From Pyrodictium delaneyi (GTDB taxonomy: Archaea; Thermoproteota; Thermoprotei_A; Sulfolobales; Pyrodictiaceae): a DNA stretch of 32,000 bases. The position numbers were made by a program, and so were the translations under genes. The stretch spans positions 1,350,001-1,382,000 of the forward strand of contig NZ_CP013011.1 in assembly GCF_001412615.1 (NCBI RefSeq), written 5' to 3'. Below the pieces are notes generated by a model. The model saw only the letters and a program-made list of their open reading frames with translations. It ran no database searches and was not told where the DNA came from. Shown here one piece after another: positions 8,626 through 25,028 of the stretch. The first letter of the stretch is position 1. Every line of letters begins with the position of its first letter.

Positions 8626-8984
8626 ACCACGAAACTAAAACAAGCCAAGATACATATTTAACACTACAACATACACACCCTCCCAGAAAAACACAGCCCA
8701 TGACAGTAAGCTGTCGTGAACGGTTTAGAACCTCTTATTTCTAGCGGCCATAGCCCCAGGCACCAGGGGCAACACATAAATACCACTACACCCGTAAAAC
8801 CGTTTAGAAAAACGCTAGACATGTAGAAACAACGCCATCGATGAGACCATCACCGATGATCACACTATTGCCTGGAATAGCTCCACCATAGACGCAATAA
8901 ATAAACACCAGGAGAACCCAAGACTCCACAAAGCAAGGCATAAATATACGTAGCAAATACATAACATCAAGTGGACAACATGCA
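8626..8984 (+). promoter_or_regulatory. CRISPR leader (A/C-rich, low complexity)
   Basis: About 360 bp of non-coding sequence between the cas6 stop and the first repeat. The degenerate repeats are at the opposite end of the array, which places the leader here. No promoter was mapped. Confidence 0.6.
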
Positions 8985-12889: not shown

Positions 12890-13666
12890 TTGGAGCCGGC
12901 TCGCCGTATTATCCCGTGTCTCGACGTGGCTGGTGGTCGAGTAGTCAAGGGGACCCGGTTCCAGAACCTCAGGGACGCTGGCGACCCGGTGGAGCTGGCT
13001 GCCCGGTACGAGGAGGAGGGTGCGGACGAGCTCGTCTTCCTCGATATAAGCGCGACGCCGGAGGAGCGGGAGCCCCTCTACCGGGTCGTACGCGACACGG
13101 CCTCCGTGGTCTCCATACCCTTCACGGTGGGGGGCGGGGTCCGGAGTCTGCGGGACTTCGGCAGGATGCTGGATAGCGGCGCCGACAAGGTCTCGATAAA
13201 CACCGCGGCTGTCCGTGACCCGATGCTGGTCGCTGAGGCTGCACGGGAGTACGGGAGCCAGGCTGTCGTGGTCGCTATCGACGCTAAGTGGGTCGGCAGG
13301 AGCCGGGGGATCCCCAGCGGCTGGGAGGTCTACGTCAGCGGTGGCCGGGTCCCCACCGGGCTGGACGCGGTCGAGTGGGCCCGGACCGTGGCCAGGCTGG
13401 GGGCTGGCGAGATACTCCTCACGAGCATCGACCGTGACGGGACTAGGGAGGGCTACGACCTCGAGCTCACCAGGGCGGTGGTGGAGGCCGTGGATATACC
13501 GGTGATAGCTAGCGGTGGGGCGGGCGAGCCCCGGCACTTTCTCGAGGCGTTCACCGTGGCGGGCGCCGATGCGGCGCTCGCGGCTGGGATCTTCCACTAC
13601 AGGGTGTACAGCGTCAGGGAGGTCAAGGAGTACCTCGCGGAGCGCGGTGTGGAGGTGAGGCTCTAG
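12890..13666 (+). CDS. hisF: Imidazole glycerol phosphate synthase, cyclase subunit HisF
   Basis: '[50 protein letters not shown]' and the C-terminal 'VIASGGAG...AALAAGIFH' are hallmark HisF motifs. Confidence 0.95.
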
Positions 13667-13668
13667 CC

Positions 13669-14952
13669 GTGCCCAGGCTAGTCTACGCGGAGTGGCCCCG
13701 GGGCCCCGGCGCCGAGGAGCTGCGGGGCCTCCTCGAGAGGAGCTATAGCCTCGACGAGTACGTGGAGCGTGTCCGCCCTATAGTCGAGGACGTGCGGCGC
13801 CGGGGCTACGAGGCGGCAAGGGAGTACAGCAGGAGGTTCGACGGCGTAGCGCCAGAGGACCCCAGGGTTCCCAGGAGCGTGATGAGGGAGGCTCTAGAGA
13901 GCCTCGACACGAGTATAGTGGAGGCTCTGGAGAAGGCTGTGGAGGCGGTCCGGCTCTACCATGTCTCCACCAGGCCCGCGGAGACCGGGGTCCCCGGGGC
14001 AAGGCTGCGCTGGCTCCCCGTGGAGCGCGTCGGCGTCTACGCGCCGGGCGGCGCCCACCCATACCCGTCCACGGTCGTACACACGGTCGTGCCCGCGAAG
14101 GCTGCTGGCTGCAGCCGGGTGGTCGTCGCGTCGCCGCCGTGCCGGGGCCAGGGCTGCCGCGGGTTCCCCGTACACCCCGCGGTACTCGCCGCAGCATACC
14201 TCGCGGGCGCCGACATGGTCTACGCTCTGGGCGGCGCGCAGGCCGTAGCAGCGCTAGCCTACGGCGCCGAGCCGGTGGAGAGGGTAGACATGGTGGTGGG
14301 GCCGGGGAGCCCCTACGTGCAGGCCGCTAAGCTCCTCGTATCCAGCGTCGTCGGCGTAGACATGATAGCCGGGCCGACCGAGGTAGCAGTGGTCGCCGAC
14401 TGCACGGCGGACCCGCGGCAGGTAGCGCTCGACATGCTAGCTGAGGCCGAGCACGGCCCCCTAAGCCTCGCGGTCCTAGCCACCCCGTGCCGGGGCCTAG
14501 CCGAGAGGGTCTACGAGATCCTCAGGCAGGAGGCCCGGGAGGGGATAGGGGACCTAGCGGTCGCGGTGACCCCGGGGCTCGACGAGGCCCTAGAGCTGGC
14601 AGACGCTATGGCGCCGGAGCACCTCGTAGCCTACCTTGGGGATCCGGGCCCGGTGCTAGAGCGCCGGGTCAGCGCCGGGGTGGTCAGTCTAGGGGTGCCG
14701 CCTGCGCTACTCGACTACGCCTATGGCCCCAGCCACGTGCTGCCCACCGGGGGCTCGGCTAGGTGGATGGGCGGGCTCAGTGTCTACACCTTCCTCCGGC
14801 CCGTGGCGCACGTGGAGCCGGGGCTGGAGGAGCGCTACCTCGAGGCAGCGATCACACTCGCCAGGCTGGAGGGCTTCGAGAACCACGCTCGGAGCCTAGA
14901 GCACAGGCTAGAGGAGCTAAGGAGGGGAGGAAGGAGCCTTGACGGGCAGTAG
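13669..14952 (+). CDS. hisD: Histidinol dehydrogenase HisD
   Basis: 'ALGGAQAVAALAYG', 'VGPGSPYVQAAKLLV', 'GVDMIAGPTEVAVVAD' and 'DMLAEAEHGP' match HisD signatures. The start is 3 nt after the hisF stop. Confidence 0.95.
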   Translation: MPRLVYAEWPRGPGAEELRGLLERSYSLDEYVERVRPIVEDVRRRGYEAAREYSRRFDGVAPEDPRVPRSVMREALESLDTSIVEALEKAVEAVRLYHVSTRPAETGVPGARLRWLPVERVGVYAPGGAHPYPSTVVHTVVPAKAAGCSRVVVASPPCRGQGCRGFPVHPAVLAAAYLAGADMVYALGGAQAVAALAYGAEPVERVDMVVGPGSPYVQAAKLLVSSVVGVDMIAGPTEVAVVADCTADPRQVALDMLAEAEHGPLSLAVLATPCRGLAERVYEILRQEAREGIGDLAVAVTPGLDEALELADAMAPEHLVAYLGDPGPVLERRVSAGVVSLGVPPALLDYAYGPSHVLPTGGSARWMGGLSVYTFLRPVAHVEPGLEERYLEAAITLARLEGFENHARSLEHRLEELRRGGRSLDGQ

Positions 14953-15244
14953 CTGCCTAGGCTTCCTAGAGGAGCTCGACCGGGTCATCGAGCAGCGGGC
15001 CAGGGAGATGCCGGAGGGCAGCTACACCGCCAGGCTACTCCGGGACCCGGGGCTCGCCGCCAGGAAGCTCGGCGAGGAGGCCGCCGAGGCCATGGTCGAG
15101 GCGCTGATTGGCACCCGGGAGAGGCTGGTAGAGGAGGCCGCCGACCTACTGTACCACCTCATGGTGCTGCTCCGGCTCCGCGGCGCAAGCCTATGCGACG
15201 TGGCCAGGGCGTTGGAGGCGAGGGCTGGTTGGCGCCGAGGGTAG
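14939..15244 (+). CDS. hisE: Phosphoribosyl-ATP pyrophosphatase HisE
   Basis: 'LEELDRVIEQRAREMPEGSYTARLL', 'KLGEEAAEAMVEA' and 'EEAADLLYHLMVLL' match the MazG-like HisE pattern. It overlaps the hisD stop by 14 nt. Confidence 0.85.
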   Translation: MTGSSCLGFLEELDRVIEQRAREMPEGSYTARLLRDPGLAARKLGEEAAEAMVEALIGTRERLVEEAADLLYHLMVLLRLRGASLCDVARALEARAGWRRG

Positions 15245-15246
15245 CA

Positions 15247-15849
15247 GTGATACAGTACGGCGTCGGCAACATCTACAGCATCGTCTCGGGGCTGCGCCGC
15301 GCCGGCGCAGAGCCCACGGTGATGGACTGCCTCCGAGACCCAGGCGACTGGGACGGTGTAGTGCTGCCGGGCGTCGGCGCCTACGCTGCAGCCTCGATGA
15401 GGCTCCACCGGTGCGCCTGGGAGATACGCGAGGCCCTCAAGATGGGCGCCCAGCTCCTCGGGGTATGCCTCGGCCTCCAGCTACTATTCACGGATAGCCG
15501 TGAGGCGGGGGAGCACAGCTACGGGCTCTCGCTACTCCCCGGCACCGTCGAGAAGCTCACAGCAGCCAAGCTGCCCCACATCGGCTGGAGCAGGGTCTAC
15601 CGCGTCCCAGGCCGGGACTGCAGACTCCTAGAGGGCATCGAGGACGGCAGCCACTTCTACTACGTGCACAGCTACGCCTACACCCGCGTCTGGGAGCCCT
15701 GGGTCTGCGCCGTGAGCCGCTACGGCGAGACGGTCTACGCGGCGGTCGTCGAGCAGCCACCGGTCTACGCTACCCAGTTCCACCCCGAGAGGAGCAGCAG
15801 GCTCGGCCAAAGGGTGCTCCGGAACTGGGTCGCGCTGCTCCGCCGCTAG
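15247..15849 (+). CDS. hisH: Imidazole glycerol phosphate synthase, glutamine amidotransferase subunit HisH
   Basis: 'VIQYGVGNIYS', nucleophile-Cys context 'LGVCLGLQLL', 'LPHIGW' and 'TQFHPERSS'. The track ORF starts at 15193 inside hisE. The in-frame GTG at 15247, just after the hisE stop, gives the canonical N-terminus. Confidence 0.9.
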   Translation: MIQYGVGNIYSIVSGLRRAGAEPTVMDCLRDPGDWDGVVLPGVGAYAAASMRLHRCAWEIREALKMGAQLLGVCLGLQLLFTDSREAGEHSYGLSLLPGTVEKLTAAKLPHIGWSRVYRVPGRDCRLLEGIEDGSHFYYVHSYAYTRVWEPWVCAVSRYGETVYAAVVEQPPVYATQFHPERSSRLGQRVLRNWVALLRR

Positions 15850-15912
15850 CCCCGTACATCCACCGGTGCAGCTCCTCCAGCTGGAGCCAGGCGCACAGGG
15901 GGCGTACACGCC

Positions 15913-16710
15913 GTGGAGGAGAAGGAGGGCAAAGAGAGGAGGCTCATACCCGTAGCCGTGGTCGACGCTGTCACCGGCGAGCCCCTGATGCTCGCCTACG
16001 CTGACGAGGAGGCCCTGGAGCGGACCAGGGAGACGGGCCTGGCCCACTTCTACTCCCGTAGCCGGGCTAGCCTCTGGCTCAAGGGAGCGTCGAGCGGCGG
16101 GCTACTCGACGTGATACGGGTACTAGGCGACTGCGACGGCGACGCAGCAGCCTACGTGGCGCGGCCCCGGCGGCACGTATGCCACCTGGGCAAGAGGAGC
16201 TGTTTCCACAACACGTTGCTCGACCGCCGCCGCGAGATACTCGAGGAGCTGCTGGAGGAGACGGGGCCCCATACCCGGCTAGACGGGGGCGCTGTGAGGC
16301 ATCCGCTCTCCACGTGGACGCCGCCACCGCAGCCCCTGCTCGCAGCCCTAGCGGCAGAGCTACTAGCTGAGAGGATACGCTCCAGGGCGGGCCCAGGCCT
16401 CACAGCAGTACTCGCGCCCGAGGCCCCCGGCGGGCTCCTCGCGCTCCTAGCAGCCCAGAAGCTCAACGTCAGCCTCCACCTAGCCCAGGGCGGCCGCGTA
16501 CCCGAGAGCATCGGTGAGACGGACCGAGTGGCGGTCTACGCGCCGAGCCCCGCCGAGGCCCAGGCGCTAGCAGAGGCTGCGCGGCAGCGAGGCGCCCACG
16601 TGGCGGCAGTGGCTGCGCTAGCAGCCCCCGCCGGGGAGGACACAAGGGGCGTAGACGTGCTCATCCGGGTCGAGCCCGGCCAGCCGCCACGCCCGAGACT
16701 GGCACTCTAG
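15913..16710 (+). CDS. hisI: Phosphoribosyl-AMP cyclohydrolase HisI fused to a C-terminal degenerate phosphoribosyltransferase-like domain
   Basis: Residues about 10-100 match HisI ('LIPVAVVDAVTGEPLMLAYADEEALERTRETGLAHFYSRSRASLWLKGASSG...DCDGDA...CHLGKRSCFH'). Residues about 135-255 have a type I PRTase-like layout ('LTAVLAPEAPGGLLALLAAQKL'). They lack the PRPP loop: 'RVAVYAPSPAEAQ' sits where VLIVDDxxxTG is expected. Confidence 0.8.
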   Translation: MEEKEGKERRLIPVAVVDAVTGEPLMLAYADEEALERTRETGLAHFYSRSRASLWLKGASSGGLLDVIRVLGDCDGDAAAYVARPRRHVCHLGKRSCFHNTLLDRRREILEELLEETGPHTRLDGGAVRHPLSTWTPPPQPLLAALAAELLAERIRSRAGPGLTAVLAPEAPGGLLALLAAQKLNVSLHLAQGGRVPESIGETDRVAVYAPSPAEAQALAEAARQRGAHVAAVAALAAPAGEDTRGVDVLIRVEPGQPPRPRLAL

Positions 16711-16758: not shown

Positions 16759-17280
16759 CTATTGCCTACAAGCTTTTGCCACGGCCCCTAGGAGCCGCCT
16801 AAACTCATCCACCTTCTCTAGGCTGCCAGCGTTGTCGGCCTCTAGGAGCAGCTGGGGCAGGAAACGCTTCTCGTAGTCCCTCCGGTGTATCCGCCTCCAG
16901 TACTCGTTTACAGCTCTCACTGGTCCCCCGTTGCACGGCTTGTCTCGGCAGCCCCGTAGCCCGAGCGCAGTACATGCTAGCGCCTCCATGCAGGGGTCGA
17001 TAGCTATCACCTCGACATCCCCACCTAGCCTGTGCTTCTCACGGACACTCCTCTCCCGTTCACTAGCCCGGCCCAGCTCGGCATCCACGAGGATGACCAC
17101 GCGCCTGCCACTCCTCAGGTGGGCCGAGACTATCCTAGTCATCTTCGCGCTGCAGACCGGGAGGTGCAGCACCATGAAGCAGTGGAGGCCCCGGCGGCCG
17201 AGGAGCAGCTCTAGAGCTCTCTTCGCGTAGCGGTCCTCGACGACTAATACGACTCTGCCGCCGCTCGCCAAGGCTGGCAA
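16759..17280 (-). CDS. Stand-alone mini-Toprim-like protein (RloB / DUF4276 / AriB-like candidate nuclease)
   Basis: 173 aa with a TTG start 11 nt after the stop of the upstream ATPase. 'RVVLVVEDRYAKRALELLL' supplies the Toprim Glu strand. 'RRVVILVDAELG' is a DxD-type acidic strand, here D-A-E. 'IAIDPCMEALACT' resembles the NPCFE(L/A)W element of RloB/DUF4276 proteins. Assignment is by motif pattern only. Confidence 0.55.
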   Translation of the reverse strand: MPALASGGRVVLVVEDRYAKRALELLLGRRGLHCFMVLHLPVCSAKMTRIVSAHLRSGRRVVILVDAELGRASERERSVREKHRLGGDVEVIAIDPCMEALACTALGLRGCRDKPCNGGPVRAVNEYWRRIHRRDYEKRFLPQLLLEADNAGSLEKVDEFRRLLGAVAKACRQ

Positions 17281-17291
17281 TGACCTCCGGG

Positions 17292-19010
17292 CTAGCTTGT
17301 CTCTAGGAGGCCGTAGAGGAGCGCCTCGCTAGGCGTCACGCCAAGTTCCCTCAGCTTCTCCGTAAGCTTCTCAGGGTCGCGGATCCTCCTAACCCTAGTC
17401 CCACCCGCTCCAATCTCGACTAGGGCTACCTCGTCCAGGCTCTTAGCAGCGTCAACTACCACGGGAGAATGGGTGGCAACAATAGCTGTCGGCACGCTAC
17501 GCCTAAGCTCCTCTAGCAGCAGCTCCTGGGCGGACGCGTGAAGGCTATTCTCGAACTCGTCAACAGCCACGAGGCTAGCCCCGCTCAGCACAGCAGCCAT
17601 CACAGCCATAGTCTTCCAGGCACCCTCAGGCACAGAAGGCTGGGCAACCTCCACGTTGTCAACTACGAGTCGAAACGCTACCCTACCATCTGGCGTAGGC
17701 TCAAAGAACCCCGAGACACTGCTAGCGTTCAGCACGTCAGCAAGCACGGCGGCAACATCCTCTGGGAGACGGCCACGCCCGAGCCGGAACAGCACCGAGA
17801 GAAGGTTAGACGCGTCTTCCCTGAGCCTCCCTGCAGGCTCCAACACTTGCGGCGAACGCAGAGAACGATAATCAAGCAAACGAAGAACAGTAATACCGTC
17901 AATGAATATTCCAACCAGATATGCGGCCATAATCAATACTGCAACGATGCTCGTGGCTATACTGGATCCCAGGCTTAGGGCCAGTTTCCTAGCAACATCG
18001 CCCACAATACCCGGCAACTTGTCTACCTTCTCTTGCTTTCCTACCAGCTTGCTCATGAGACAGCTGACAAGCTGCTCAGCGAGTTTAGTGAAGTCCAGCT
18101 TATTCAGCATTACAGCAGCTATGCTCTCCCATGAGAGATGTGAAACAATAGCATCTGCTTCTTCAAAGATATCGATCGGGTAGTTTGCTTTACCGACACG
18201 GTCGAGGTAGAGATCAAGAACGCTTCTAGCTGGTATGACTCCCGCTGTAGGAGTGCCTCCGGCTAGTGTCTTCTCCTCAAGTAAGGCAACAACTTGGTCT
18301 CTAAGCTGCTCTAGCATATCATTCATCTGGATATTACATGTAGTAAGAACATCTCCAATAATTACTATGTTGTCGGCTCTTTCGGCTATTTTCGCGGCTA
18401 TAGGTAAGATATCCATAGCAATGTTTCCATGGTATACTGGAGGTCTATATGCCAATGGTTTTGCTATTTTGAGGACCACGCCTTTTGGGCTGAAAGCTAG
18501 GCAACCAGCTCCATCAACGCATACCTCGTCTTCGACTATCTGGAATTGTCCTCCTGTGCCGGATACTACAAGCCTATACTTGACCGCTCCCATACCGCCA
18601 CGTACTGCGCTCTTAACGCCTTCTGCTCCCAGCTCTTCTTCTAGGAGTTTTGCTAGTTCTTCTTTGCTACACGCGCTGCAGTCTAGGGTTATGGATATGG
18701 TTATGGGCTTGGTTTCATCGTGCATCCATACAGCGTGGCGGTATCCCCACCAGCGTAGGAACGGGTTGGCTATGCGGCCTCGGAGGTAGTCGAGGGTGTC
18801 CCGGAGGAGTAGCAGCGACTCTATGATGGCTGTTTTGCCCGAGCCGTTGGGGCCTACGAGTATCGTGAGCCTGGTTGGGAGTTCGAGCCTAGTGTCCCGT
18901 AAGGATTTGAAACCGGAGACGCGTAGCTCTGCGAGCCTGCAGCACGTGGGCTGGAGGTTCTGCACCCTTGTTCCTCCCGTGTGTCGTAGTATAGCGGCTG
19001 GCCGGGGCAT
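17292..19010 (-). CDS. SMC/ABC-type (AAA_15/AAA_21-like) ATPase of the OLD/AriA/RloA/AbiLi class, with long middle insertion
   Basis: N-terminal 'LRVSGFKSLRDTRLELPTRLTILVGPNGSGKT' (Walker A). C-terminal 'PEGAWKTMAVMAAVL' (signature-like), 'SLVAVDEFENSLH' (Walker B/D-loop) and 'VATHSP' (H-loop). About 400 residues separate Walker A from Walker B, as in OLD-family/PARIS-type ATPases. An alternative GTG start is at 18965. Confidence 0.8.
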   Translation of the reverse strand: MPRPAAILRHTGGTRVQNLQPTCCRLAELRVSGFKSLRDTRLELPTRLTILVGPNGSGKTAIIESLLLLRDTLDYLRGRIANPFLRWWGYRHAVWMHDETKPITISITLDCSACSKEELAKLLEEELGAEGVKSAVRGGMGAVKYRLVVSGTGGQFQIVEDEVCVDGAGCLAFSPKGVVLKIAKPLAYRPPVYHGNIAMDILPIAAKIAERADNIVIIGDVLTTCNIQMNDMLEQLRDQVVALLEEKTLAGGTPTAGVIPARSVLDLYLDRVGKANYPIDIFEEADAIVSHLSWESIAAVMLNKLDFTKLAEQLVSCLMSKLVGKQEKVDKLPGIVGDVARKLALSLGSSIATSIVAVLIMAAYLVGIFIDGITVLRLLDYRSLRSPQVLEPAGRLREDASNLLSVLFRLGRGRLPEDVAAVLADVLNASSVSGFFEPTPDGRVAFRLVVDNVEVAQPSVPEGAWKTMAVMAAVLSGASLVAVDEFENSLHASAQELLLEELRRSVPTAIVATHSPVVVDAAKSLDEVALVEIGAGGTRVRRIRDPEKLTEKLRELGVTPSEALLYGLLETS

Positions 19011-19067: not shown

Positions 19068-19838
19068 TTGTTTGTCCGTGTTTCTTTTCTCGGTGATACC
19101 GGAGGGTGTTGTAGGCGGGCTCTCCTGGTCTTGTCTAAGCGTTTCGAACGTATGTACACCCGGCTAGCCCTGCTCGCGGAGAGAATGGGTGTCGGCGAGC
19201 TCCTCGCCCCGGTCGTGGAGAGGCTCGCTGTGCTCTATAGCCGGGGTGTGCTGGGTGCGGGGCACGTGGTGCTCGAGCTCGTCGCGGCTGGTGTGCTCGC
19301 CCGCGAGGGCTACACGGTGTCCGTGGAGGAGCCTGTTGACGGGCTAATAGTGGATGTGCTCGCCCGTATGGGTCGTGAGAGGCTCGTGGTGGAGGTCGAG
19401 ACGGGCTATACTCCGCCCCGGTGGAGCCACGCGCCCCTCGCCTACCACGCGGCCCGGCTAGCAGCGAAGACGGCCAGATACAGCCGGCTAGGCGACAGGT
19501 TCGCCCTCGCCTACCCCCTGGGCTACGCTGCGCCCATCCACCCCGCGCTGCTCGAGCCCCCGTGGCGCCGTAGCCCAGGGATGCTAGCTGAGCTGAAGAG
19601 CCTGGTTGACAGGTTCTACCAGAGGCCACCCATACCCCTAGAGGCCTTCCAGCAGGCCCACCTGGACGCGGTGCTGCTCCTCGACCCCGACAACGCCTCG
19701 GCCTACTGGGCCCCGCCGAGCCGCGCCCCCGGCCTACAAGTGCTAGTAGTACAGGCAGCGCTCTCAACGCTGACTAGCCCCGGCGGCGAGCCAGGGACAG
19801 CCAGCGTAGTGACCGCTGCAGCTGCTACACCGTCTTAG
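19068..19838 (+). CDS. Hypothetical protein with Hjc/PD-(D/E)xK nuclease-like N-terminal core
   Basis: 'GHVVLELVAAGVLAREGYTVSVEEPVDGLIVDVLARMGRERLVVEVETG' follows the E...D...E-x-K layout of Hjc-type restriction-endonuclease folds, with Thr in place of Lys. The likely true start is ATG 19152. The 3' end overlaps the convergent ATPase gene by 14 nt. Confidence 0.45.
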   Translation: MFVRVSFLGDTGGCCRRALLVLSKRFERMYTRLALLAERMGVGELLAPVVERLAVLYSRGVLGAGHVVLELVAAGVLAREGYTVSVEEPVDGLIVDVLARMGRERLVVEVETGYTPPRWSHAPLAYHAARLAAKTARYSRLGDRFALAYPLGYAAPIHPALLEPPWRRSPGMLAELKSLVDRFYQRPPIPLEAFQQAHLDAVLLLDPDNASAYWAPPSRAPGLQVLVVQAALSTLTSPGGEPGTASVVTAAAATPS

Positions 19839-21216
19839 AGGCGGCTGGCTCCACTACTCGGTGGCGGTGGAGCCACTCCAGGTCCACGGCTATGTGGTGC
19901 TCCTCCAGTATCGGCTCGTCTAGCTCCCGGGCTACCAGGACGTAGTAGTTCCGGGGCGAGGCTAGCCCTGTCTCGCCCGCCTTCTCCTCGAGCCTCGCCA
20001 GGACTCGGCGCGCATCCGAGACGCTCAGCCGGGCCCACTTAGCCTCGATGAAGGCCGTGGCTTTGCCGGGGCTCCTCACGACTAGGTCTATCTCGATTCC
20101 CCGGTGCCACCAGGGCCCAGCCTGCCGCGGCTCAACGGGCAGGATACCCCGGTCTATCATACGCGTGGCCAGCTGCGGCACGATGGTCTCCTCGAAGGCC
20201 CGTCCCATGTAGCTGTCTAGCTCCTCGAGTATTACGCGACGCGCCTTCTCCACAGCACCAGACTCTATCAGGCTCCTCAACGGGAGTATGAAGCTGAACC
20301 AGAACCTGAAGAAGTTGTCCCTGAACCGGAGCTGGACGGGCCTACGGCGGCCTAGGGGCCGCACCCTCTCCACCAGGTCCAGCTCCTCGAGGACCTCGAT
20401 GTAGCGACCGATACTCCTCGGATCGACCCCCGCAGCGTGGGCGGCCTCGCTCGGCTCCACCCTGCCCTCGGCGACAGCCCGGAGCACAGCGAGGTATGTT
20501 CGGGGCTCGCGTAGCTCCTGCCTGAGGAGCCACACCGGCTCATCGAGGAGCGGGCTACCGGGCCGCGTAGCCTCCTCCACGAGCCTCTCAGCCGAAGCAC
20601 TGGGCCCCAGGAGGGCCAGGTAGGCCGGTGTGCCCCCAGCTACCCCGTAGAGCCGGGCCGCCTCCACCGCTGTTAGTCCCGGGTTGAAGCCCCAAGCCTC
20701 CCAGAACATCATGGGGCGTAGCTTCAACTGCCCAGTACGCCGGCCATAGAGCGGCGCCTGGTACCCGAGTAGCCGCTTCTCGAAGAAGGAGACCGATGAG
20801 CCACAGAGTACCAGCACCATCTCCGAGCCCCGTAGGACGGTGTCTATGCTCCTCATGAGCCGGCTCGGCAGCGACGGGTCAGCCTCCACCAGGTACTGGA
20901 ACTCGTCGAGAACAACCACCAGCTTGTCCCCGCCCCGGTGGAGCCTGACGAGTGCCTCCAGAACCTCCACAACATCCCCAGCAACGGGGAGCCCTAGAGT
21001 ATCCCTCACCGCTAGGGAGAACTCCCGGGCAAGGTTCTCATAGGGCAACTCAGCAGCCACGTAGTAGACGCAGGGCCTACCGCGGCAGAACCAGCGCAGC
21101 AGATACGTCTTCCCGACGCGTCTCCGCCCATACACCACTAGCAGCCGGAAGCCCGGTTCACGGTACTCCCGCTCAAGCAGTCCTAGCTCCTGCTCCCGGT
21201 CAACCAGTAACTCCAC
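19825..21216 (-). CDS. Archaeal ATPase (PF01637-type AAA+) with wHTH and C-terminal DUF234 (PD-(D/E)xK-like) domain
   Basis: 'LVDREQELGLLE...LLVVYGRRRVGKTYLL' (Walker A) and 'LVVVLDEFQYL' (Walker B). The C-terminal 'WHRGIEIDLVVRSPGKATAFIEAKWA' has the D...E-x-K motif characteristic of DUF234. Confidence 0.8.
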   Translation of the reverse strand: MELLVDREQELGLLEREYREPGFRLLVVYGRRRVGKTYLLRWFCRGRPCVYYVAAELPYENLAREFSLAVRDTLGLPVAGDVVEVLEALVRLHRGGDKLVVVLDEFQYLVEADPSLPSRLMRSIDTVLRGSEMVLVLCGSSVSFFEKRLLGYQAPLYGRRTGQLKLRPMMFWEAWGFNPGLTAVEAARLYGVAGGTPAYLALLGPSASAERLVEEATRPGSPLLDEPVWLLRQELREPRTYLAVLRAVAEGRVEPSEAAHAAGVDPRSIGRYIEVLEELDLVERVRPLGRRRPVQLRFRDNFFRFWFSFILPLRSLIESGAVEKARRVILEELDSYMGRAFEETIVPQLATRMIDRGILPVEPRQAGPWWHRGIEIDLVVRSPGKATAFIEAKWARLSVSDARRVLARLEEKAGETGLASPRNYYVLVARELDEPILEEHHIAVDLEWLHRHRVVEPAASKTV

Positions 21217-21350: not shown

Positions 21351-21968
21351 CTAGCTCCGCGGAGGCAGTATCGCGCCCTTAGTCGACACGACCCCCTGGC
21401 TCTGGGCCAAGGCCTGCCGCAGAGCCATGCCCAGGGCCTTGAAGGCCGCCTCGGCCACGTGGTGATCGTTCTCACCGCGAAGCGTGACCACGTGCAGGGT
21501 CATACCGGCAGCGGCGGCTAGGCTCTGCATGAAGTGCGGAATATTCTCCGTGGCAAGGCCTCCGATAGACTCGCGGCGTAGAGGTAGCTCTACCCAGGCC
21601 CCAGGCCGCCCCGAGTAATCCACAGAAACGAGGACAAGCGCCTCATCCATGGGCACCACTGCGTAGCCGAATCGCGCCACCCGGTAGCCCCCTGCTGCCA
21701 CAGCCTTGGCTATAGCCTCGCCCAGCGCCAGCGCAAGATCCTCAGCCACGTGGTGATCATCTACACGCTTAACTTCCTCCACCTCGACGCGGAGCCCCCA
21801 GCCAGCATAGTAGGCAAGAGTCTCCACCATATGGTCGAGGAAGGGTACACTGGTCGATACACCGATCTCCCGCAGTTCAGAGCCATCGAGATCGACGTCT
21901 ACCCGCACTATGGTCTCCTTCGTCCGGCGCTCGACTTTTACTCTCCGAGCCAATACAGCTCGCCCCAA
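21351..21968 (-). CDS. hisB: Imidazoleglycerol-phosphate dehydratase HisB
   Basis: 'RRTKETIVRVDVDLDGS', 'VPFLDHMVETLA', 'DDHHVAEDLALALGEA', 'VPMDEALVLVSVDYSGRP' and 'GENDHHVAEAAFKALGMAL' are duplicated IGPD motifs. Confidence 0.93.
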   Translation of the reverse strand: MGRAVLARRVKVERRTKETIVRVDVDLDGSELREIGVSTSVPFLDHMVETLAYYAGWGLRVEVEEVKRVDDHHVAEDLALALGEAIAKAVAAGGYRVARFGYAVVPMDEALVLVSVDYSGRPGAWVELPLRRESIGGLATENIPHFMQSLAAAAGMTLHVVTLRGENDHHVAEAAFKALGMALRQALAQSQGVVSTKGAILPPRS

Positions 21969-22203
21969 AGTGGTTTAGGGGCTGGGCTGGTAAATAGATG
22001 CAGTGAAGCCCCAGGCTGTCGTGCAGAACATTAACTATATTAAAGATAGCTTATCTTGTAAGCCAGGTGAAACATAGCCCCTATGTTTGATATATCATTC
22101 CATTATAGAACAATATTACTATAACTTTGCTGAATGAATATAAGATACTCTAAGTCTAATACAACGTAGAGAAATGGCACAAAACTTGTAGCTGGTTAGA
22201 CCG

Positions 22204-22258
22204 ATCAAGATAGCCGCTCTATAATCAGTGCTAGTATACTCTGATACACTATCTTGAT
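22204..22258. repeat. Perfect 10-bp inverted repeat ATCAAGATAG ... CTATCTTGAT (35-nt spacer); related AAGATA-GCT-TATCTT palindrome at 22043-22057
   Basis: Read directly from the sequence, inside the 490-bp AT-rich intergenic region. Confidence 0.9.
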
Positions 22259-22457
22259 ATCTAGTTCTTTGCGCAGTGTGCATACACTATTACCTTGGTA
22301 TAGGTATAATAGTGTGTTATTTGTGTAGTTATCAGAACTTTTGAGCTAATGAACAAATTGTATACTTCAGACGTGCGCCCAGTATATAACTGGCCAATTA
22401 CAGAGTATAACCATCTGGAGAACAGGTACAAAGTCTGAAAGAGGTGCATCCTAAGCC

Positions 22458-23198
22458 ATGAACAGACTCGTATACGTGTTAATACCCGTAGTGCTAGTCG
22501 CGCTAGCAGCTGCAGGATACGTCTACCTCAAGGGCGCAGAGGCTCCGACAGCGGAGACCACTGTAGCGAGTACCACTCCACAAACCATGACGGGGCAGTC
22601 GATACCCGGAGGCCACGGCCCCGGTGCTGGAGGGGCAAGCGTCTCGACGATGGTTCAGCAGCTTCCGGCAGAGCCTCTCTCAGAGGATGAGAAGGAGAGC
22701 CTACTCTTCATGGTCGAGGAGGAGAAGCTGGCCCGCGACGTTTACAACAGGCTTGCAGAGATGTACCCTGAGGTGCAAGTGTTCGCAAATATTGCGAGGA
22801 GCGAGCAGCAGCACGTAGACTCGGTAATGCAGCTAATAGAGAAGTACGGGCTGGAGATAGATCTCGGGCAGCCCGGCGAGTTCCACAACCAGGAGCTACA
22901 GCAGCTCTACAACGAGCTAGTAGACCGCGGCTCTAAGAGCCTAGAAGAAGCACTGAAAGTGGGCGCACTGATAGAGGAGAAGGACATAGTTGACCTAAAG
23001 GACTGGCTCGCTAAGGTAGACAACGAGGACATCAAGCTAGTCTACGAGAACCTTATGCACGGCAGCTTCAACCACCTATGCGCCTTCACAAGGACGCTGA
23101 AGAACATGCTGGGCATAGACTACAAGCCAGTACTCCTCGACGAGGAGACATACAACAGCATCATATCCAGCTGCTCCATGGGCGGCCCCAAGCAGTAA
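22458..23198 (+). CDS. DUF2202 ferritin-like domain protein with N-terminal membrane anchor/signal
   Basis: N-terminal 'LVYVLIPVVLVALAAAGYVYL', then 'LSEDEKESLLFMVEEEKLARDVYNRL...FANIARSEQQHVDSV...ALKVGALIEEKDIVDL...YENLMHGSFNHLCAF', matching the DUF2202 di-iron-like helical repeats. GAGGTG is about 12 nt upstream of the ATG. Confidence 0.8.
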   Translation: MNRLVYVLIPVVLVALAAAGYVYLKGAEAPTAETTVASTTPQTMTGQSIPGGHGPGAGGASVSTMVQQLPAEPLSEDEKESLLFMVEEEKLARDVYNRLAEMYPEVQVFANIARSEQQHVDSVMQLIEKYGLEIDLGQPGEFHNQELQQLYNELVDRGSKSLEEALKVGALIEEKDIVDLKDWLAKVDNEDIKLVYENLMHGSFNHLCAFTRTLKNMLGIDYKPVLLDEETYNSIISSCSMGGPKQ

Positions 23199-23388
23199 GA
23201 AGTTGGAGAGTGTGGGGACACGAGGCATCCATATTATTATTATTTTGGCTTAGTGCTACCCTTTGTCGTGTCTTCATTAATACCTCTTGGCTACAGTCGG
23301 CTATAGTGTAGACACCGAGCCTTAGTCTCTAAAACACCCAAGACTATTGGCTCGTATCTAGATCCTTTCCTAGGTCTCGCTCTAGCGT

Positions 23389-24138
23389 CTATTCTAGCAT
23401 GCCTAGTGGGTTGAGCCGCCAGGTGTAGAGGGCCATGCCTGCTACTGCTTCGTCGTAGCCTAGTGCTGCGAGGAGCTCTAGGTCCCGTGGGCTTGCTATG
23501 CCTCCGCTGTATGCTAGCCTTGGTGCACCTGCCTCCCGGGCTAGCCGGGCTAGCCTTGCCGCGCGGTGGATGTCTACGCCGCGTAGCTCGCCTTCGTGGA
23601 AGACCTGGGTGTAGAATATACCCCAGATGCCCCGGGTTCCGGCTGCCAGCTTCACGGCCTCGGCTAGGGTCATCGGCTCCCGTGCTCTCCACGCGCTGGT
23701 CGCGGGCAGCGCCTCCCAGGACTCCTCGACGGCTGGTACTACTATGCCTGGGCCGAGCGCTGCCACAGCCTCTTCTAGGAACTCGGGGCGGCGGAGCCAC
23801 GCGCTAGCCACTACTAGGCGGTCGGCGCCCGCGCTGTGAGCCTCCTCTAGGGCCTCTATGGTGCGGAGCCCGCCGCCGAGCTGGATCGTGACCCCTGTCT
23901 CCCTCTTGGCCCATTTGACCAGGTCTAGGACGCAGCTGCTGGGCTTGCCCCTGGCCGCGCCGTCTAGGTCGACTATGTGGAGGGTCCTGGCGCCCAGCGT
24001 GTGCCAGAGCGCTACGAGGCGCCTGGGGTCTCCGAGGCGTAGCCCGGTGCCGGGAACCCCGCGGACCAGCTTGACGGCCTCGCAGCCGGCTACGTCTATG
24101 CTGGGTACGAGCCGGGGCCTGGAGAGCGGGCAGGGCAT
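23389..24138 (-). CDS. hisA: ProFAR isomerase HisA
   Basis: 'LVPSIDVAGCEAVKLVRG', 'LHIVDLDGAARGKP', 'IQLGGGLRT' and 'LAYSGGIAS' are HisA (beta/alpha)8 phosphate-binding motifs. The start is 3 nt after the hisG stop. Confidence 0.9.
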   Translation of the reverse strand: MPCPLSRPRLVPSIDVAGCEAVKLVRGVPGTGLRLGDPRRLVALWHTLGARTLHIVDLDGAARGKPSSCVLDLVKWAKRETGVTIQLGGGLRTIEALEEAHSAGADRLVVASAWLRRPEFLEEAVAALGPGIVVPAVEESWEALPATSAWRAREPMTLAEAVKLAAGTRGIWGIFYTQVFHEGELRGVDIHRAARLARLAREAGAPRLAYSGGIASPRDLELLAALGYDEAVAGMALYTWRLNPLGMLE

Positions 24139-24140
24139 GG

Positions 24141-25028
24141 CTAGGGTATCACCCTGTCCACGCTGAGCACTAGTATGTCCCGGGCGCCGCGCTTACGGGC
24201 CTCGACGAGGACATGTGCTAGCCGGTCTTCCGGCACCACTGTTATCACCTCCCACATGGGCCGGGGGCCCTCCACCCTGGCTATAGTCGGCCCCGACATC
24301 GAGGGCAATACCTCTACTACCTGCTCCAGTACCTCCTCGGGCACGTTCATGAGGACTAGCTTGTAGCCCCTTGCCCTCAGCACGCTCCTCACAGCCTCCA
24401 CGATGACCTCGACGAGCGGATCCTGGGGGTCTACGTGGCTGCCCCTGATCAGCTTAGCCTCTGTCCGCATAACCTCTGCTATTACCCGTAGCCCGTGTAG
24501 CCGGAGAGTAGTCCCGGTCGATGAGACGTCTAGTATAGCGTCTGCCACGCCTAGCCTGGGCATCGCCTCAGCCGAGCCCGTTATCCTGATTATCCGGGCC
24601 CGCACCCCGTGGCTCTCGAAGAACCTCCGGGCGATGTTGACGAACTTAGTCGCCACCCGGACCCCATCGGGGAGGTCCCTGATGCTCTCCACCGGCGCCT
24701 CCTCCGGCACTGCGACCACGAGGCGGGCGCGGCCGATCCCCAGGCCCTCGACGATCTCTAGGCCCTCGCCGCCATGCTCCTCTATGTAGTCGAGCCCCGT
24801 GATGCCGAGCTCTGCGCCGCCCGCAGACACTATCGCCGGTATATCCTCGGGCCGGACGTAGACCAGGGACACGTTGTCCCAGTTAGTGGGCACTATCAGC
24901 GCGCGGGTCGCGTCGGGGCTATAGAGCGGCTCTATGCCTGCCGCCTCTAGTAGTCGGAGCACCGGCTCCCGTAGCCGGCCCTTGCTCGGGACAGCTATCC
25001 TTATGCCCACTCCATACTCACCCCGCAT
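24141..25028 (-). CDS. hisG: ATP phosphoribosyltransferase HisG (long form with C-terminal regulatory domain)
   Basis: 'IRIAVPSKGRLREPVLRLLEAAGI', 'VRPEDIPAIVSAGGAELGITGLDYIEE' and 'ILDVSSTGTTLRLHGL'. At 295 aa it includes the C-terminal domain. Confidence 0.9.
   Translation of the reverse strand: MRGEYGVGIRIAVPSKGRLREPVLRLLEAAGIEPLYSPDATRALIVPTNWDNVSLVYVRPEDIPAIVSAGGAELGITGLDYIEEHGGEGLEIVEGLGIGRARLVVAVPEEAPVESIRDLPDGVRVATKFVNIARRFFESHGVRARIIRITGSAEAMPRLGVADAILDVSSTGTTLRLHGLRVIAEVMRTEAKLIRGSHVDPQDPLVEVIVEAVRSVLRARGYKLVLMNVPEEVLEQVVEVLPSMSGPTIARVEGPRPMWEVITVVPEDRLAHVLVEARKRGARDILVLSVDRVIP

What the first reader, a model, noticed from the sequence alone, without database searches (positions are those of the whole stretch)
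16759..19010. Candidate novel two-gene defence cassette: OLD/PARIS/AbiL-class ATPase plus a 173-aa stand-alone mini-Toprim, in an archaeon
Seen in the sequence:
- The 572-aa protein has Walker A (GPNGSGKT, nt 18831-18854), a Walker B/D-loop (LVAVDEFENSLH, around nt 17550-17573) and an H-loop (ATHSP), separated by a 400-aa insertion.
- It is followed after 11 nt by a 173-aa ORF with a Toprim-like Glu strand (VLVVEDR, E15), an acidic strand (VILVDAE, D66/E68) and a DPCMEAL element resembling the NPCFELW motif of RloB/DUF4276 proteins.

Established knowledge: OLD nucleases fuse these two modules. PARIS (AriA ATPase + AriB Toprim), AbiL and the RloA/RloB pairs split them, and such pairs act as abortive-infection or anti-phage sensors in bacteria.

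Inference: this is a miniaturised, split version in a crenarchaeote-type genome, where to my knowledge no such system has been functionally described. The nuclease partner is far smaller than AriB/RloB-type partners as I recall them.
Basis: partly seen in the sequence, partly recalled or inferred. Interest (0 to 1): 0.8.

Follow-up and report, generated by a model that had tools for sequence, protein, structure and literature searches.

The report
Archaeal ATPase plus small Toprim pair
Two adjacent genes in this Pyrodictium genome encode an ABC-type ATPase and a small Toprim-like (nuclease-type) protein that always travel together, a divergent and so far unannotated archaeal branch of a known class of candidate abortive-infection or toxin-antitoxin modules whose function here is untested.

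Summary
Both ORFs, all the motifs and the 11-nt gap are at the stated coordinates.

**The large protein** is an ABC ATPase. It passes the Pfam AAA_21 and AAA_15 cut-offs and models as an SMC/Rad50/PtuA-like head with a variable helical insert.

**The small protein** has no Pfam or NCBIfam hit. Four lines of evidence make it a Toprim-like protein of the RloB/DUF4276/Mad4/HEC-01B kind:
- A confident AlphaFold model.
- A best viral-library structure match to an RloB-like protein (TM 0.60), and a weak best PDB match to the OLD Toprim region.
- Mad4 profile hits in 26 of 39 relatives.
- Acidic positions conserved across the family: E/D15, D66, E/D68 and an invariant E99.

**The pairing** held in all 11 other distinct loci where upstream sequence could be read. 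A homologous ATPase sits directly upstream, with a gap of -17 to +28 nt in the ten with called gene coordinates. The flanks are unrelated and often carry toxin-antitoxin genes or an integrase. One phage protein family appears to fuse both parts.

**What is overstated** is "novel" and "miniaturised". ABC ATPase plus a separate roughly 200-aa Toprim is a catalogued architecture (HEC-01, AbiL, MADS3-4, NetFlax pairs). The defence role is inferred, and the one HEC-01 tested elsewhere gave no protection.

Verdict: a new, rare member of a known kind, with every named source in the Thermoproteota.

The parts
17292..19010 (-). Gene for a 572-aa ABC ATPase (AAA_15/AAA_21 type), the likely sensor or regulator subunit
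   Evidence: ORF. Pfam AAA_21 62.2 bits (cut-off 27), AAA_15 48.5 (32.1) and SMC_N 41.4 (40). Best PADLOC hit HEC-01A, 8.9e-25. AF2 pLDDT 87.3, pTM 0.88. Foldseek top hits are SMC, Rad50 and retron PtuA heads.
18831..18854 (-). Walker A / P-loop GPNGSGKT (K59)
   Evidence: Translation. G53, N55, G56, S57, G58 and K59 are invariant in 25 homologues.
17895..18698 (-). Variable region of the ATPase (residues 105-372): a beta-rich Insert-1 followed by a helical Insert-2. This is the likely trigger-recognition or oligomerisation part. Its last roughly 30 residues (about 345-372) are conserved.
   Evidence: Columns for about residues 105-345 are poorly conserved and full of indels in A4, while the N- and C-terminal parts are conserved. 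Strands 103-182 and helices 194-371 in the model. GC falls to 0.44-0.48 at 17900-18650, against 0.65-0.70 in the flanks.
17847..17858 (-). RSPQ, a Q-loop-like motif (P387 invariant, Q388 nearly invariant)
   Evidence: The assignment as a Q-loop is an inference from its position in the ABC fold.
17613..17630 (-). PEGAWK, a degenerate ABC signature-like motif (G463 and K466 invariant)
   Evidence: It lies inside the stretch matched by the AAA_21 C-terminal region, 455-520.
17550..17573 (-). Walker B LVAVDEFE (D484, catalytic E485), followed by NSLH
   Evidence: D484, E485, F486, E487, S489, L490 and H491 are invariant.
17463..17477 (-). H-loop ATHSP (T513, H514 and S515 invariant)
17295..17339 (-). 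Conserved C-terminal tail VTPSEALLYGLLETS of the ATPase, a candidate docking site for the Toprim partner (inference only)
   Evidence: T559 and E562 are invariant and S561 nearly so. Short helices at 546-556 and 560-565. The analogy is to the C-terminal effector-binding helix of NsnB described in PMC12065111.
16759..17280 (-). Gene for a 173-aa (170 aa as deposited) stand-alone Toprim-like protein of the RloB/DUF4276/Mad4/HEC-01B type, the likely nuclease effector or toxin
   Evidence: ORF. AF2 pLDDT 88.3, pTM 0.82, with four beta-alpha units plus three C-terminal helices. BFVD top hit is an RloB-like protein, E 3.8e-4, TM 0.60/0.50. PDB top hit is the Xanthomonas OLD C-terminal region, E 3.7e-3, TM 0.36. 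PADLOC mad4 2.4e-4 for this protein and 26 of 39 relatives, best 1.5e-8.
17233..17238 (-). E15-D16 directly after strand beta-1, the position of the Toprim catalytic glutamate
   Evidence: Position 15 is E in 31 and D in 7 of 39. Position 16 is D in 33 and N in 5. Strand 10-14 in the model.
17077..17085 (-). D66-A-E68 at the end of strand beta-3, the position of the Toprim DxD motif (here DxE)
   Evidence: D66 in 38 of 39. Position 68 is E in 25, D in 11 and H in 3. Strand 60-66.
16978..16998 (-). DPCMEAL after strand beta-4, containing the only invariant acidic residue, E99. The family consensus is PC(I)EEW.
   Evidence: E99 in 39 of 39. Position 101 is W in 34 of 39. Helix 98-105.
16933..16992 (-). 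Cysteine cluster C97-x5-C103-x7-C111-x4-C116. All four are invariant in the ten closest relatives. Role unknown: a metal site or disulfides.
   Evidence: Family-wide only C103 (37 of 39) and C43 (36 of 39, nt 17152-17154) are conserved.
16855..16875 (-). YEKRFLP motif in the C-terminal helical part (Y136 and L141 invariant, K138 in 36 of 39)

Best explanation
The two genes form one operon. It encodes a two-component module of the 'ABC ATPase + separately encoded Toprim protein' kind.

**Shown**
- The 572-aa protein is an SMC/Rad50-like ABC ATPase with intact Walker A, Walker B (DE) and H-loop motifs, and a variable middle region.
- The 170-173-aa protein models as an RloB/DUF4276-like Toprim fold with a conserved acidic cluster: E15, D66, E68 and E99.
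- The pair is inherited as a unit.

**Inferred, by analogy with PARIS, AbiL, OLD, Gabija and the NetFlax AAA-TOPRIM toxin-antitoxin pairs**
- The ATPase oligomer holds the Toprim protein inactive.
- A virus- or stress-derived trigger is sensed through the variable insert.
- ATP binding or hydrolysis then releases or activates the Toprim protein.
- The Toprim protein cuts nucleic acid in a metal-dependent manner (tRNA/RNA or DNA, undetermined), causing growth arrest or abortive infection.

Confidence in the structural and family assignment is about 0.85. Confidence in the defence or toxin-antitoxin mechanism is about 0.55. The figure given below covers the whole statement.
For: **ATPase**
- Pfam AAA_21, AAA_15 and SMC_N all score above their curated cut-offs.
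- All 25 family members hit HEC-01A (best 4.5e-31), AriA and mad3, and 24 hit AbiLi.
- Foldseek gives SMC, Rad50 and retron PtuA heads at E 1e-10 to 1e-7.
- The catalytic motifs are invariant.

**Small protein**
- Confident model.
- The best BFVD hit is RloB-like (prob 1.00, TM 0.60 over 159 columns), followed by TOPRIM primases.
- The best PDB hit is the OLD Toprim region.
- Among 39 relatives, 26 hit mad4, 11 HEC-01B, 3 the retron ATPase-Toprim_I-B model and 2 AbiLii. Pfam RloB matches 11 and DUF4276 matches 8, weakly.
- P0005, a 40%-identical relative, aligns end to end with an HEC-01B profile (1-169 against 1-187 of 197, E 1.5e-5).
- The acidic positions are conserved.

**Linkage**
- A homologous ATPase lies directly upstream in all 11 other distinct loci examined. 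The gap is -17 to +28 nt in the ten with called gene coordinates.
- ATPase and partner identities fall together: 47/54, 38/40 and 33/26 %.
- phrog_3940 is matched by the ATPase at its N-terminus and by small-family members at positions 348-491, which points to a fused form.

**Mobility and defence flavour**
- Flanks differ in every locus and include HEPN/NTase, PIN/MazE, AF2212/PIN and an integrase.
- GC dips over the pair.
- The family is rare: 52 representatives among 1.84 billion.

**Literature for the analogy**: PMC11464382, PMC10440598, 10.1101/2024.01.29.577857, PMC12065111.
Against: - There is no experimental evidence for this family.
- The window's small protein itself scores in no Pfam or NCBIfam model. 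Its only direct profile hit is mad4 at E 2.4e-4.
- The Foldseek PDB match to OLD is weak (E 3.7e-3, TM 0.36). Generic flavodoxin- or Rossmann-like folds score almost as well.
- The second acidic residue of the 'DxD' is Glu here. It is His in 3 of 39 relatives, and some relatives have D-N instead of E-D after beta-1.
- The HEC-01 representative tested by Payne et al. protected against none of the phages tried.
- I could not model the complex, so physical interaction is inferred from gene linkage only.
- Decayed copies exist: a frameshifted gene in L003 and an N-terminally truncated one in P. abyssi.
Confidence: 0.6

Rival explanations
1. A purely selfish toxin-antitoxin (addiction) module. The Toprim protein is a toxin and the ATPase its antitoxin, maintained because losing the module kills the cell, with no role against viruses.
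For: - NetFlax validated AAA-ATPase 'antitoxins' paired with TOPRIM_OLD toxins (PMC10440598).
- The pair sits next to other TA modules and an integrase, and has a patchy distribution.
- HEC-01 gave no phage protection.
Against: - Related ATPase-Toprim systems with a tested function (PARIS, Gabija, OLD, HEC-04) do defend.
- A highly variable sensor-like insert in the ATPase is what an arms race would produce, and simple addiction would not need it.
- TA and abortive-infection roles are not mutually exclusive.
Confidence: 0.2
2. The small protein has the Toprim fold but is not a nuclease. It would act as an adaptor, a nucleotide- or metal-binding regulator, or a DNA-binding partner of the ATPase.
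For: - No hit to any curated Toprim model for the window protein.
- DxE instead of DxD, and D-N variants after beta-1 in five relatives.
- Non-catalytic Toprim domains exist, for example in RecR (my own knowledge).
- Generic flavodoxin-like folds score close behind OLD in the PDB search.
Against: - All four acidic positions stay acidic or metal-ligating in at least 36 of 39 members, and E99 in 39 of 39. That is hard to explain without a metal site.
- The closest profiles (Mad4/DUF4276, HEC-01B, RloB, AbiLii) are all regarded as nuclease effectors.
Confidence: 0.1
3. A housekeeping DNA-repair or chromosome-maintenance pair, analogous to Rad50/SMC- or RecF-like ATPases working with a Toprim protein such as RecR.
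For: - The ATPase's best structural matches are SMC, cohesin, condensin and Rad50 heads.
- The N-terminal region matches RecF and SMC models in NCBIfam.
Against: - Those NCBIfam hits cover only about 40 N-terminal residues and fall far below the cut-offs (35 against 172 bits).
- There is no long coiled coil.
- The family is extremely rare and patchy (52 representatives) and sits in different contexts each time.
- Decayed copies occur, and GC is atypical.
- Defence-type ATPase profiles score much higher.
Confidence: 0.05
4. The pair is only part of a larger system that also includes the neighbouring 256-aa ORF (19068-19838, +) and the ATPase_2/DUF234 protein (19825-21216, -).
For: - All four genes lie together between two his gene clusters.
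- The ATPase_2/DUF234 protein matches the candidate defence family PDC-S27.
- In L008 an ATPase_2 gene directly follows the pair.
Against: - tblastn of the 256-aa ORF and the ATPase_2/DUF234 protein against all fetched loci gave no hit, while the small protein was found in 14 of the 17 fetched loci, L001-L010 and L012-L014.
- The conserved unit across loci is only the two genes.
- ATPase_2 proteins are very common in archaea.
Confidence: 0.05

Closest known systems
HEC-01 (Hma-embedded candidate 01; PADLOC-DB; Payne et al., bioRxiv 10.1101/2024.01.29.577857)
   Same: - The architecture is the same: an ABC ATPase (HEC-01A) followed by a separately encoded protein of about 200 aa with Toprim similarity (HEC-01B).
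- HEC-01A is the best PADLOC hit of the window ATPase (8.9e-25) and of all 25 family members (best 4.5e-31).
- HEC-01B profiles are hit by 11 of 39 small-protein relatives, one of them end to end.
   Different: - The window's own small protein does not hit any HEC-01B profile.
- The pair is not embedded in an Hma system but lies between histidine-biosynthesis gene clusters.
- The named hosts are hyperthermophilic Thermoproteota.
- The ATPase is 572 aa, against profiles of about 400 positions, because of a larger insert.
MADS Mad3-Mad4 (methylation-associated defence system, Pseudomonas aeruginosa)
   Same: - Mad3 is an AAA_15/21 ATPase and Mad4 a DUF4276-type Toprim.
- mad4 is the only profile the window's small protein hits (E 2.4e-4, covering 6-108 of 110). 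It is hit by 26 of 39 relatives, best 1.5e-8.
- mad3 scores 7e-17 for the ATPase.
   Different: - Among the four proteins scanned (the pair and its two upstream neighbours), no other MADS component matches significantly. The best is mad8, E 0.016, with no matched stretch.
- The NCBIfam MAD3 equivalog score is 46.9 against a cut-off of 420.
- Here the pair stands alone.
AbiL (AbiLi/AbiLii, Lactococcus) and RloA/RloB-type pairs; NetFlax AAA-antitoxin/TOPRIM_OLD-toxin pairs (PMC10440598)
   Same: - A bicistronic ATPase plus a small RloB/TOPRIM_OLD-like effector that acts as the toxic part.
- AbiLi is hit by 24 of 25 ATPase relatives, best 1.7e-26.
- The best structural match of the small protein is an RloB-like protein.
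- RloB is weakly hit by 11 of 39 relatives.
   Different: - AbiLii is hit by only 2 of 39 relatives, and weakly.
- Pfam RloB does not score for the window protein.
PARIS (AriA/AriB; OLD class 4)
   Same: - A split ABC ATPase plus Toprim nuclease in two adjacent genes.
- The mechanism is known: an AriA hexamer sequesters AriB, a trigger releases it, and AriB cuts tRNA. This is the best mechanistic template.
- AriA profiles score 9e-17.
   Different: - AriB is a 35-kDa DUF4435 protein. None of the 39 small-protein relatives hits an AriB or DUF4435 model.
- The AriA matches are limited to the generic P-loop and Walker B regions.
OLD family nucleases class 1/2 (P2 Old, GajA) and the retron I-B ATPase-Toprim effector
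   Same: - Same two modules and the same ATPase clade.
- The PDB's best structural match of the small protein is the OLD C-terminal (Toprim) region.
- Three relatives hit the retron ATPase-Toprim_I-B model, best 2.8e-7.
- phrog_3940 seems to be a fused equivalent.
   Different: - In OLD, GajA and the retron effector the modules are fused in one polypeptide, whereas here they are separate genes.
- No Pfam Toprim_Old hit.
- The ATPase insert is different.

Membership tests
ABC ATPase, AAA_15/AAA_21 ('OLD-ABC') clade | Scores above the curated Pfam thresholds for AAA_21 and AAA_15 | tested here: met
   AAA_21 62.2 bits (cut-off 27) and AAA_15 48.5 bits (cut-off 32.1).
ABC ATPase, AAA_15/AAA_21 ('OLD-ABC') clade | Walker A, Walker B with a catalytic Glu, and an H-loop His, all conserved | tested here: met
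   GPNGSGKT, VDEFE and THS are invariant in 25 homologues.
ABC ATPase, AAA_15/AAA_21 ('OLD-ABC') clade | SMC/Rad50-like head fold | tested here: met
   AF2 pTM 0.88. 194 PDB matches at E<=1e-3, led by SMC, cohesin, Rad50 and PtuA heads. TM is only 0.3-0.5, which I attribute to the insert.
Toprim superfamily | Three-layer alpha/beta fold with four parallel strands, similar to known Toprim domains | tested here: met
   Four beta-alpha units. BFVD top hit is RloB-like at TM 0.60/0.50, followed by TOPRIM primases. PDB top hit is the OLD Toprim region but weak, TM 0.36. The 2-1-3-4 strand order was not checked directly because no coordinates were available.
Toprim superfamily | Conserved Glu after beta-1 and a DxD motif after beta-3 (as stated in PMC12065111) | tested here: met
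   Position 15 is E or D in 38 of 39, and D66 is present in 38 of 39. Position 68 is E or D in 36 of 39, which gives DxE in the window. The substitution is conservative, so the feature is met with that caveat.
Toprim superfamily | Scores in a curated Toprim sequence model (Pfam Toprim, Toprim_Old and relatives) | tested here: not met
   The window protein has no Pfam family even at E<=10. Only 1 of 39 relatives hits PF01751, at E 2.4e-3.
RloB (PF13707) / DUF4276 (PF14103) | Passes the Pfam model | tested here: not met
   The window protein gives no hit. 11 of 39 relatives (RloB, best 7e-4) and 8 of 39 (DUF4276, best 3e-4) give weak hits only. It is related to these families but is not a member by their models.
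MADS (Mad1-8) | Mad4-like protein together with the mandatory Mad6, Mad7 and Mad8 (model definition) | tested here: not met
   mad4 E 2.4e-4 and mad3 7e-17. Among the four proteins scanned, the only other mad hit is mad8, E 0.016, with no matched stretch. ORFs further away were not scanned against PADLOC.
HEC-01 | HEC-01A ATPase and HEC-01B Toprim protein encoded side by side | tested here: inconclusive
   The A component is clearly met (8.9e-25, and 25 of 25 relatives). For B, the window protein has no HEC-01B hit, but 11 of 39 relatives do, and P0005 aligns full length at 1.5e-5. PADLOC's own system-calling rules were not run.
PARIS (AriA/AriB) | AriB with a DUF4435 Toprim domain | tested here: not met
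   No AriB or DUF4435 hit for any of the 39 relatives.
OLD nucleases class 1/2 | ATPase and Toprim in a single polypeptide | tested here: not met
   Two ORFs separated by a stop codon and 11 nt. The genes are also split in all the related loci.
AbiL | AbiLi ATPase plus an AbiLii partner | tested here: inconclusive
   AbiLi scores 1e-11 for the window ATPase and hits 24 of 25 relatives, best 1.7e-26. AbiLii hits only 2 of 39 relatives, at 1.7e-3.
Any anti-virus defence system | Protects a host against virus infection | not testable with these tools
   This needs an experiment. The related HEC-01 representative gave no protection in E. coli.

The most novel reading that the evidence does not exclude
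This is a rare lineage of the OLD-like split ATPase-Toprim systems whose named sources are all Thermoproteota. Pfam and NCBIfam do not recognise its effector, and PADLOC matches it only weakly through mad4. It would work as a genuine anti-virus abortive-infection system in hyperthermophiles. Its compact Toprim effector would be stabilised or regulated by a clade-specific four-cysteine site (C97, C103, C111, C116) that binds a metal or forms disulfides. That would give a first handle on OLD-type immunity in Crenarchaeota, which are reported to be poor in known defence systems apart from CRISPR, restriction-modification and Argonautes.
Probability: 0.4. Interest if true: 0.55.

Novelty: new member of a known kind. 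Interest (0 to 1): 0.38.

Why it matters
Thermoproteota are reported to carry few recognised defence systems beyond CRISPR-Cas, restriction-modification and Argonautes (10.1101/2025.04.20.649705).

This pair shows that at least one widespread bacterial design, an ABC-ATPase sensor plus a Toprim effector, also exists there. Its effector matches no Pfam or NCBIfam model, and the only PADLOC model it matches is mad4, weakly. If the pair is functional:
- It adds a small, thermostable two-protein model for studying how ABC ATPases gate Toprim nucleases.
- It supplies sequences for building a detection profile for archaeal genomes.

It does not change the general picture, because the architecture and its likely logic are already known from PARIS, AbiL, MADS3-4, HEC-01 and the NetFlax pairs.

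Tried and rejected
1. Direct sequence searches of the small protein against PDB chains found nothing relevant, whether as a single sequence or as a 39-sequence profile. The best hits were PTS IIA-Man at E 0.09 and mL49 at E 0.47.
2. The search for related loci with the 39- and 10-sequence alignments failed because no stretch was conserved enough. With the 4-sequence alignment it returned a single locus, L003, so a genome-wide taxonomic census was not possible.
3. The word-indexed search with the family profile added only five new relatives (P0091-P0095) and no Pfam-annotated bridge to DUF4276.
4. tblastn of a relative (P0024) against phage records and of the window's small protein against plasmid records found no match.
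5. I considered that the hydrophobic stretch at about residues 345-385 of the ATPase (LALSLGSSIATSIVAVLIMAAYLVGIFIDGITVL) might be a membrane segment. I rejected this. In the model it is the end of a long helix (335-371) running into a core strand, with pLDDT above 90, and it belongs to the conserved FIDGI.V.R.D...RSPQ block of the ABC core.
6. I looked for flanking direct or inverted repeats that would mark an insertion and found only short chance-level matches.
7. I tested whether the neighbouring 256-aa ORF and the ATPase_2/DUF234 gene belong to the system. They are not conserved with the pair.
8. No name or organism could be obtained for the distant relatives from the cluster look-up.

Full report

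Yes. The ORF listing gives a 572-aa ORF at 17292..19010 (-) and a 173-aa ORF at 16759..17280 (-), separated by 11 nt.

- Walker A GPNGSGKT at 18831-18854 (K59).
- Walker B LVAVDEFE at 17550-17573.
- H-loop ATHSP at 17463-17477.
- In the small protein, E15-D16 at 17233-17238, D66-A-E68 at 17077-17085 and DPCMEAL at 16978-16998.

The ATPase is deposited unchanged as a hypothetical protein of Pyrodictium delaneyi (P0056, 100% identity). The small one is deposited as a 170-aa product starting at the second TTG (P0001, 99% identity). Homologues and confident AlphaFold models (pLDDT 88.3 and 87.3) rule out chance ORFs.

**2. The ATPase**

Pfam AAA_21 (62.2 bits against a cut-off of 27), AAA_15 (48.5 against 32.1) and SMC_N (41.4 against 40) all pass their curated thresholds.

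In PADLOC the best model is HEC-01A (8.9e-25). It is followed by PDC-M25A, mad3, AriA, PDC-M07A, PtuA, GajA and AbiLi. Across 25 homologues, HEC-01A is hit by all of them (best 4.5e-31) and AbiLi by 24 (1.7e-26). The NCBIfam equivalogs PtuA, MAD3 and RecF score far below their cut-offs, so the protein belongs to none of those specific families.

The model (pTM 0.88) matches SMC, condensin and cohesin heads, Rad50 and retron PtuA at E 1e-10 to 1e-7.

The family alignment shows three zones:
- An invariant N-terminal lobe, with GPNGSGKT and then NPF..WW.Y.
- A poorly conserved, indel-rich middle at about residues 105-345. In the model this is strands 103-182 followed by helices.
- A conserved C-terminal half: FIDGI.V.R.D...RSPQ, DASN, FEPT.DGR, P.GAWK, VDEFENSLH, ATHS and a conserved tail TPSEALLYGL.

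The true variable insert is about 240 residues. That insert coincides with a GC trough of 0.44-0.48 at 17900-18650, against 0.65-0.70 in the flanks.

**3. The small protein**

No Pfam, NCBIfam or PHROG model scores for it. Its only direct hit is PADLOC mad4, at E 2.4e-4 over residues 9-100 against profile positions 6-108 of 110. Mad4 is described as a DUF4276 homologue, and DUF4276 and RloB as Toprim-superfamily members carrying a Glu near beta-1 and a DxD after beta-3 (PMC12065111).

The family is tiny:
- 4 clusters among 5.8 billion by word search.
- 52 representatives at E<=1e-3 among 1.84 billion by full profile search. Nearly all the complete ones are stand-alone proteins of 155-196 aa.

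Scanning 39 full-length members one by one gives:
- PADLOC: mad4 in 26 (best 1.5e-8), HEC-01B in 11 (1.5e-5), retron ATPase-Toprim_I-B in 3 (2.8e-7) and AbiLii in 2.
- Pfam: RloB in 11 (7e-4), DUF4276 in 8 (3e-4) and Toprim in 1.

P0005, 40% identical to the window protein, aligns end to end with an HEC-01B profile (1-169 against 1-187 of 197).

The AlphaFold model has four beta-alpha units (strands 10-14, 35-39, 60-66 and 89-94) followed by three helices. Foldseek results:
- Against BFVD, the top hit is an RloB-like protein (E 3.8e-4, prob 1.00, TM 0.60/0.50 over 159 columns), followed by TOPRIM primases.
- Against the PDB, the top hit is the C-terminal (Toprim) region of Xanthomonas OLD. The match is weak (E 3.7e-3, TM 0.36), and flavodoxin-like folds lie close behind.

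Column statistics:

| Position | Residues in 39 members |
|---|---|
| 15 | E 31, D 7 |
| 16 | D 33, N 5 |
| 66 | D 38 |
| 68 | E 25, D 11, H 3 |
| 99 | E 39 |
| 43 | C 36 |
| 103 | C 37 |
| 136 | Y 39 |
| 138 | K 36 |
| 141 | L 39 |

These acidic residues sit at the C-terminal ends of beta-1, beta-3 and beta-4, where Toprim metal ligands lie. I conclude that it is a divergent Toprim protein of the RloB/DUF4276/Mad4/HEC-01B type. By the curated models it is a member of none of those families.

**4. Linkage of the two genes**

In every related locus with readable upstream sequence, a homologue of the window ATPase lies immediately upstream on the same strand:
- L001, L002, L003, L004/5, L006/7, L008/9, L010 and L015-17.
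- L011, where a 39-aa fragment ends ...GLTFSEGWLLGKL, like the ATPase tail.
- L012, from Pyrofollis japonicus.
- L013/14, a Thermoproteota MAG.

The gaps run from -17 to +28 nt in the ten with called gene coordinates. Identities of the two proteins fall in step: ATPase/partner 47/54, 46/55, 38/40 and 33/26 %.

The flanks are unrelated between loci. They often hold HEPN/NTase, PIN/MazE or AF2212/PIN toxin-antitoxin genes, DUF499 or an integrase.

One PHROG family of 537 positions (phrog_3940) is matched at its N-terminus by the ATPase and at positions 348-491 by small-family members, which points to a fused counterpart.

The neighbouring 256-aa ORF and the ATPase_2/DUF234 gene are not conserved with the pair.

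In the window, the pair and these two genes lie between two convergent histidine-biosynthesis clusters. hisF-D-E-H-I is on the + strand up to 16710. hisB, hisA and hisG are on the - strand from 21351. No flanking repeats mark an insertion.

**5. How it most likely works**

*Shown.* The pair is an ATP-hydrolysis-competent ABC ATPase with a fast-evolving insert, plus a tightly linked small Toprim-like protein with a conserved acidic cluster. The two move as a unit between genomes.

*Inferred.* The ATPase oligomer binds and silences the Toprim protein. A viral or stress trigger recognised by the variable insert, coupled to ATP binding or hydrolysis, frees or activates the Toprim protein. The Toprim protein then cleaves RNA/tRNA or DNA and stops growth.

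The templates for this inference are:
- PARIS, where an AriA hexamer releases AriB, which cuts tRNA (PMC11464382).
- The NetFlax AAA-antitoxin/TOPRIM_OLD-toxin pairs and AbiL (PMC10440598).

The substrate and the trigger cannot be predicted from these data. Against over-confidence, the HEC-01 representative tested by Payne et al. protected against none of the phages tried. Decayed copies also exist, namely the frameshift in L003 and the N-terminal truncation in P. abyssi.

**6. Comparison with what is known, and novelty**

ABC ATPase (AAA_15/21) plus a separate Toprim partner is an established class. PARIS uses DUF4435. AbiL and MADS3-4 were added to the same list. HEC-01 is defined exactly this way. 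RloB- and TOPRIM_OLD-type toxins with AAA antitoxins appear.

The window's pair works like these and is closest to HEC-01 and MADS3-4 by profile. It still fails the specific membership tests:
- No DUF4435.
- No Pfam RloB or DUF4276 score.
- No significant match to any other MADS component among the four proteins scanned.
- No Hma context.
- No HEC-01B hit for the window protein itself.

Its size of 170-173 aa is only slightly below the 197-204-position HEC-01B profiles and the 213-aa RloB-like match. It is therefore not a striking miniaturisation.

What is new:
- A distinct, very rare sequence family with no curated model. All its named sources are Thermoproteota (Pyrodictium, Pyrofollis and Thermoproteota/Crenarchaeota MAGs). 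Most sources carry no name.
- A four-cysteine motif specific to the window's clade.

I file it as a new member of a known kind, of moderate interest.

**7. Limits**

- I could not model the complex.
- I could not run an HH-type search against Pfam or the PDB.
- I could not inspect model coordinates, so strand order and cysteine geometry are unchecked.
- I could not do a genome-wide census.

Noticed in passing
window 7624-8625 (+) and 8984-9842: A Cas6 gene (Pfam Cas6_N 8e-14, CRISPR_Cas6 7e-8) is followed by a CRISPR array of at least 13 repeats, GAATCATAACAAATAGAACTGAAAG, spaced 63-73 nt. This accounts for the low GC (0.45) and strong AT skew of 8-10 kb.
   Followed up: partly
window 19825-21216 (-): A 463-aa ATPase_2 (PF01637) + DUF234 protein with a winged-helix region. 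It matches the candidate defence family PDC-S27 (4e-33), which a preprint reports as especially abundant in archaea. It lies 0.8 kb upstream of the pair on the same strand but is not conserved with the pair elsewhere. In L008, however, an ATPase_2 gene directly follows the pair.
   Followed up: partly
window 19068-19838 (+): A 256-aa ORF transcribed divergently from the ATPase gene, with no hit in Pfam, NCBIfam, PADLOC or PHROGs. By eye, the stretch LIVDVLA...LVVEVETG resembles a PD-(D/E)xK nuclease motif, but I did not test this. It overlaps a 210-aa ORF on the other strand, so the coding strand itself is unverified.
   Followed up: no
window 12890-16710 (+) and 21351-25028 (-): The histidine-biosynthesis genes form two convergent clusters: hisF, hisD, hisE, hisH and hisI on the + strand, and hisB, a DUF2202 gene, hisA and hisG on the - strand. 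About 4.5 kb of accessory genes (the pair, the 256-aa ORF and ATPase_2/DUF234) lies between them.
   Followed up: partly
window 17900-18650: A sharp GC trough (0.44-0.48, against 0.65-0.70 in the flanks) is confined to the variable insert of the ATPase gene. This suggests the insert has a different history, through recombination or recent transfer, from the rest of the gene.
   Followed up: no
window 16933-16992 and 17152-17154: Conserved cysteines in the small protein. C43 and C103 are conserved family-wide (36 and 37 of 39). C97, C103, C111 and C116 are invariant in the window's closest clade, with spacing C-x5-C-x7-C-x4-C. They could form a metal site or disulfides, but the geometry could not be checked without coordinates.
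   Followed up: partly
L003 6150-6624; P0002 (Pyrodictium abyssi): Apparent decay of the small gene in relatives. In the L003 MAG the reading frame shifts part-way through the gene. The P. abyssi protein is annotated as 128 aa starting at M47, so it lacks beta-1 and E15. These could be pseudogenes or assembly and annotation errors.
   Followed up: no
PHROG phrog_3940 (no window coordinates): A phage protein family of 537 profile positions is matched at positions 5-43 by the window ATPase and at 348-491 by small-family members P0024 and P0050. It is likely a fused OLD-like ATPase-Toprim of viruses. No phage record was found by tblastn.
   Followed up: partly
L012 1333-2562 (Pyrofollis japonicus): A phage-type integrase gene lies 3.4 kb upstream of the Pyrofollis copy of the pair, and a NurA gene lies directly downstream. 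This hints that this copy sits on an integrated element.
   Followed up: no
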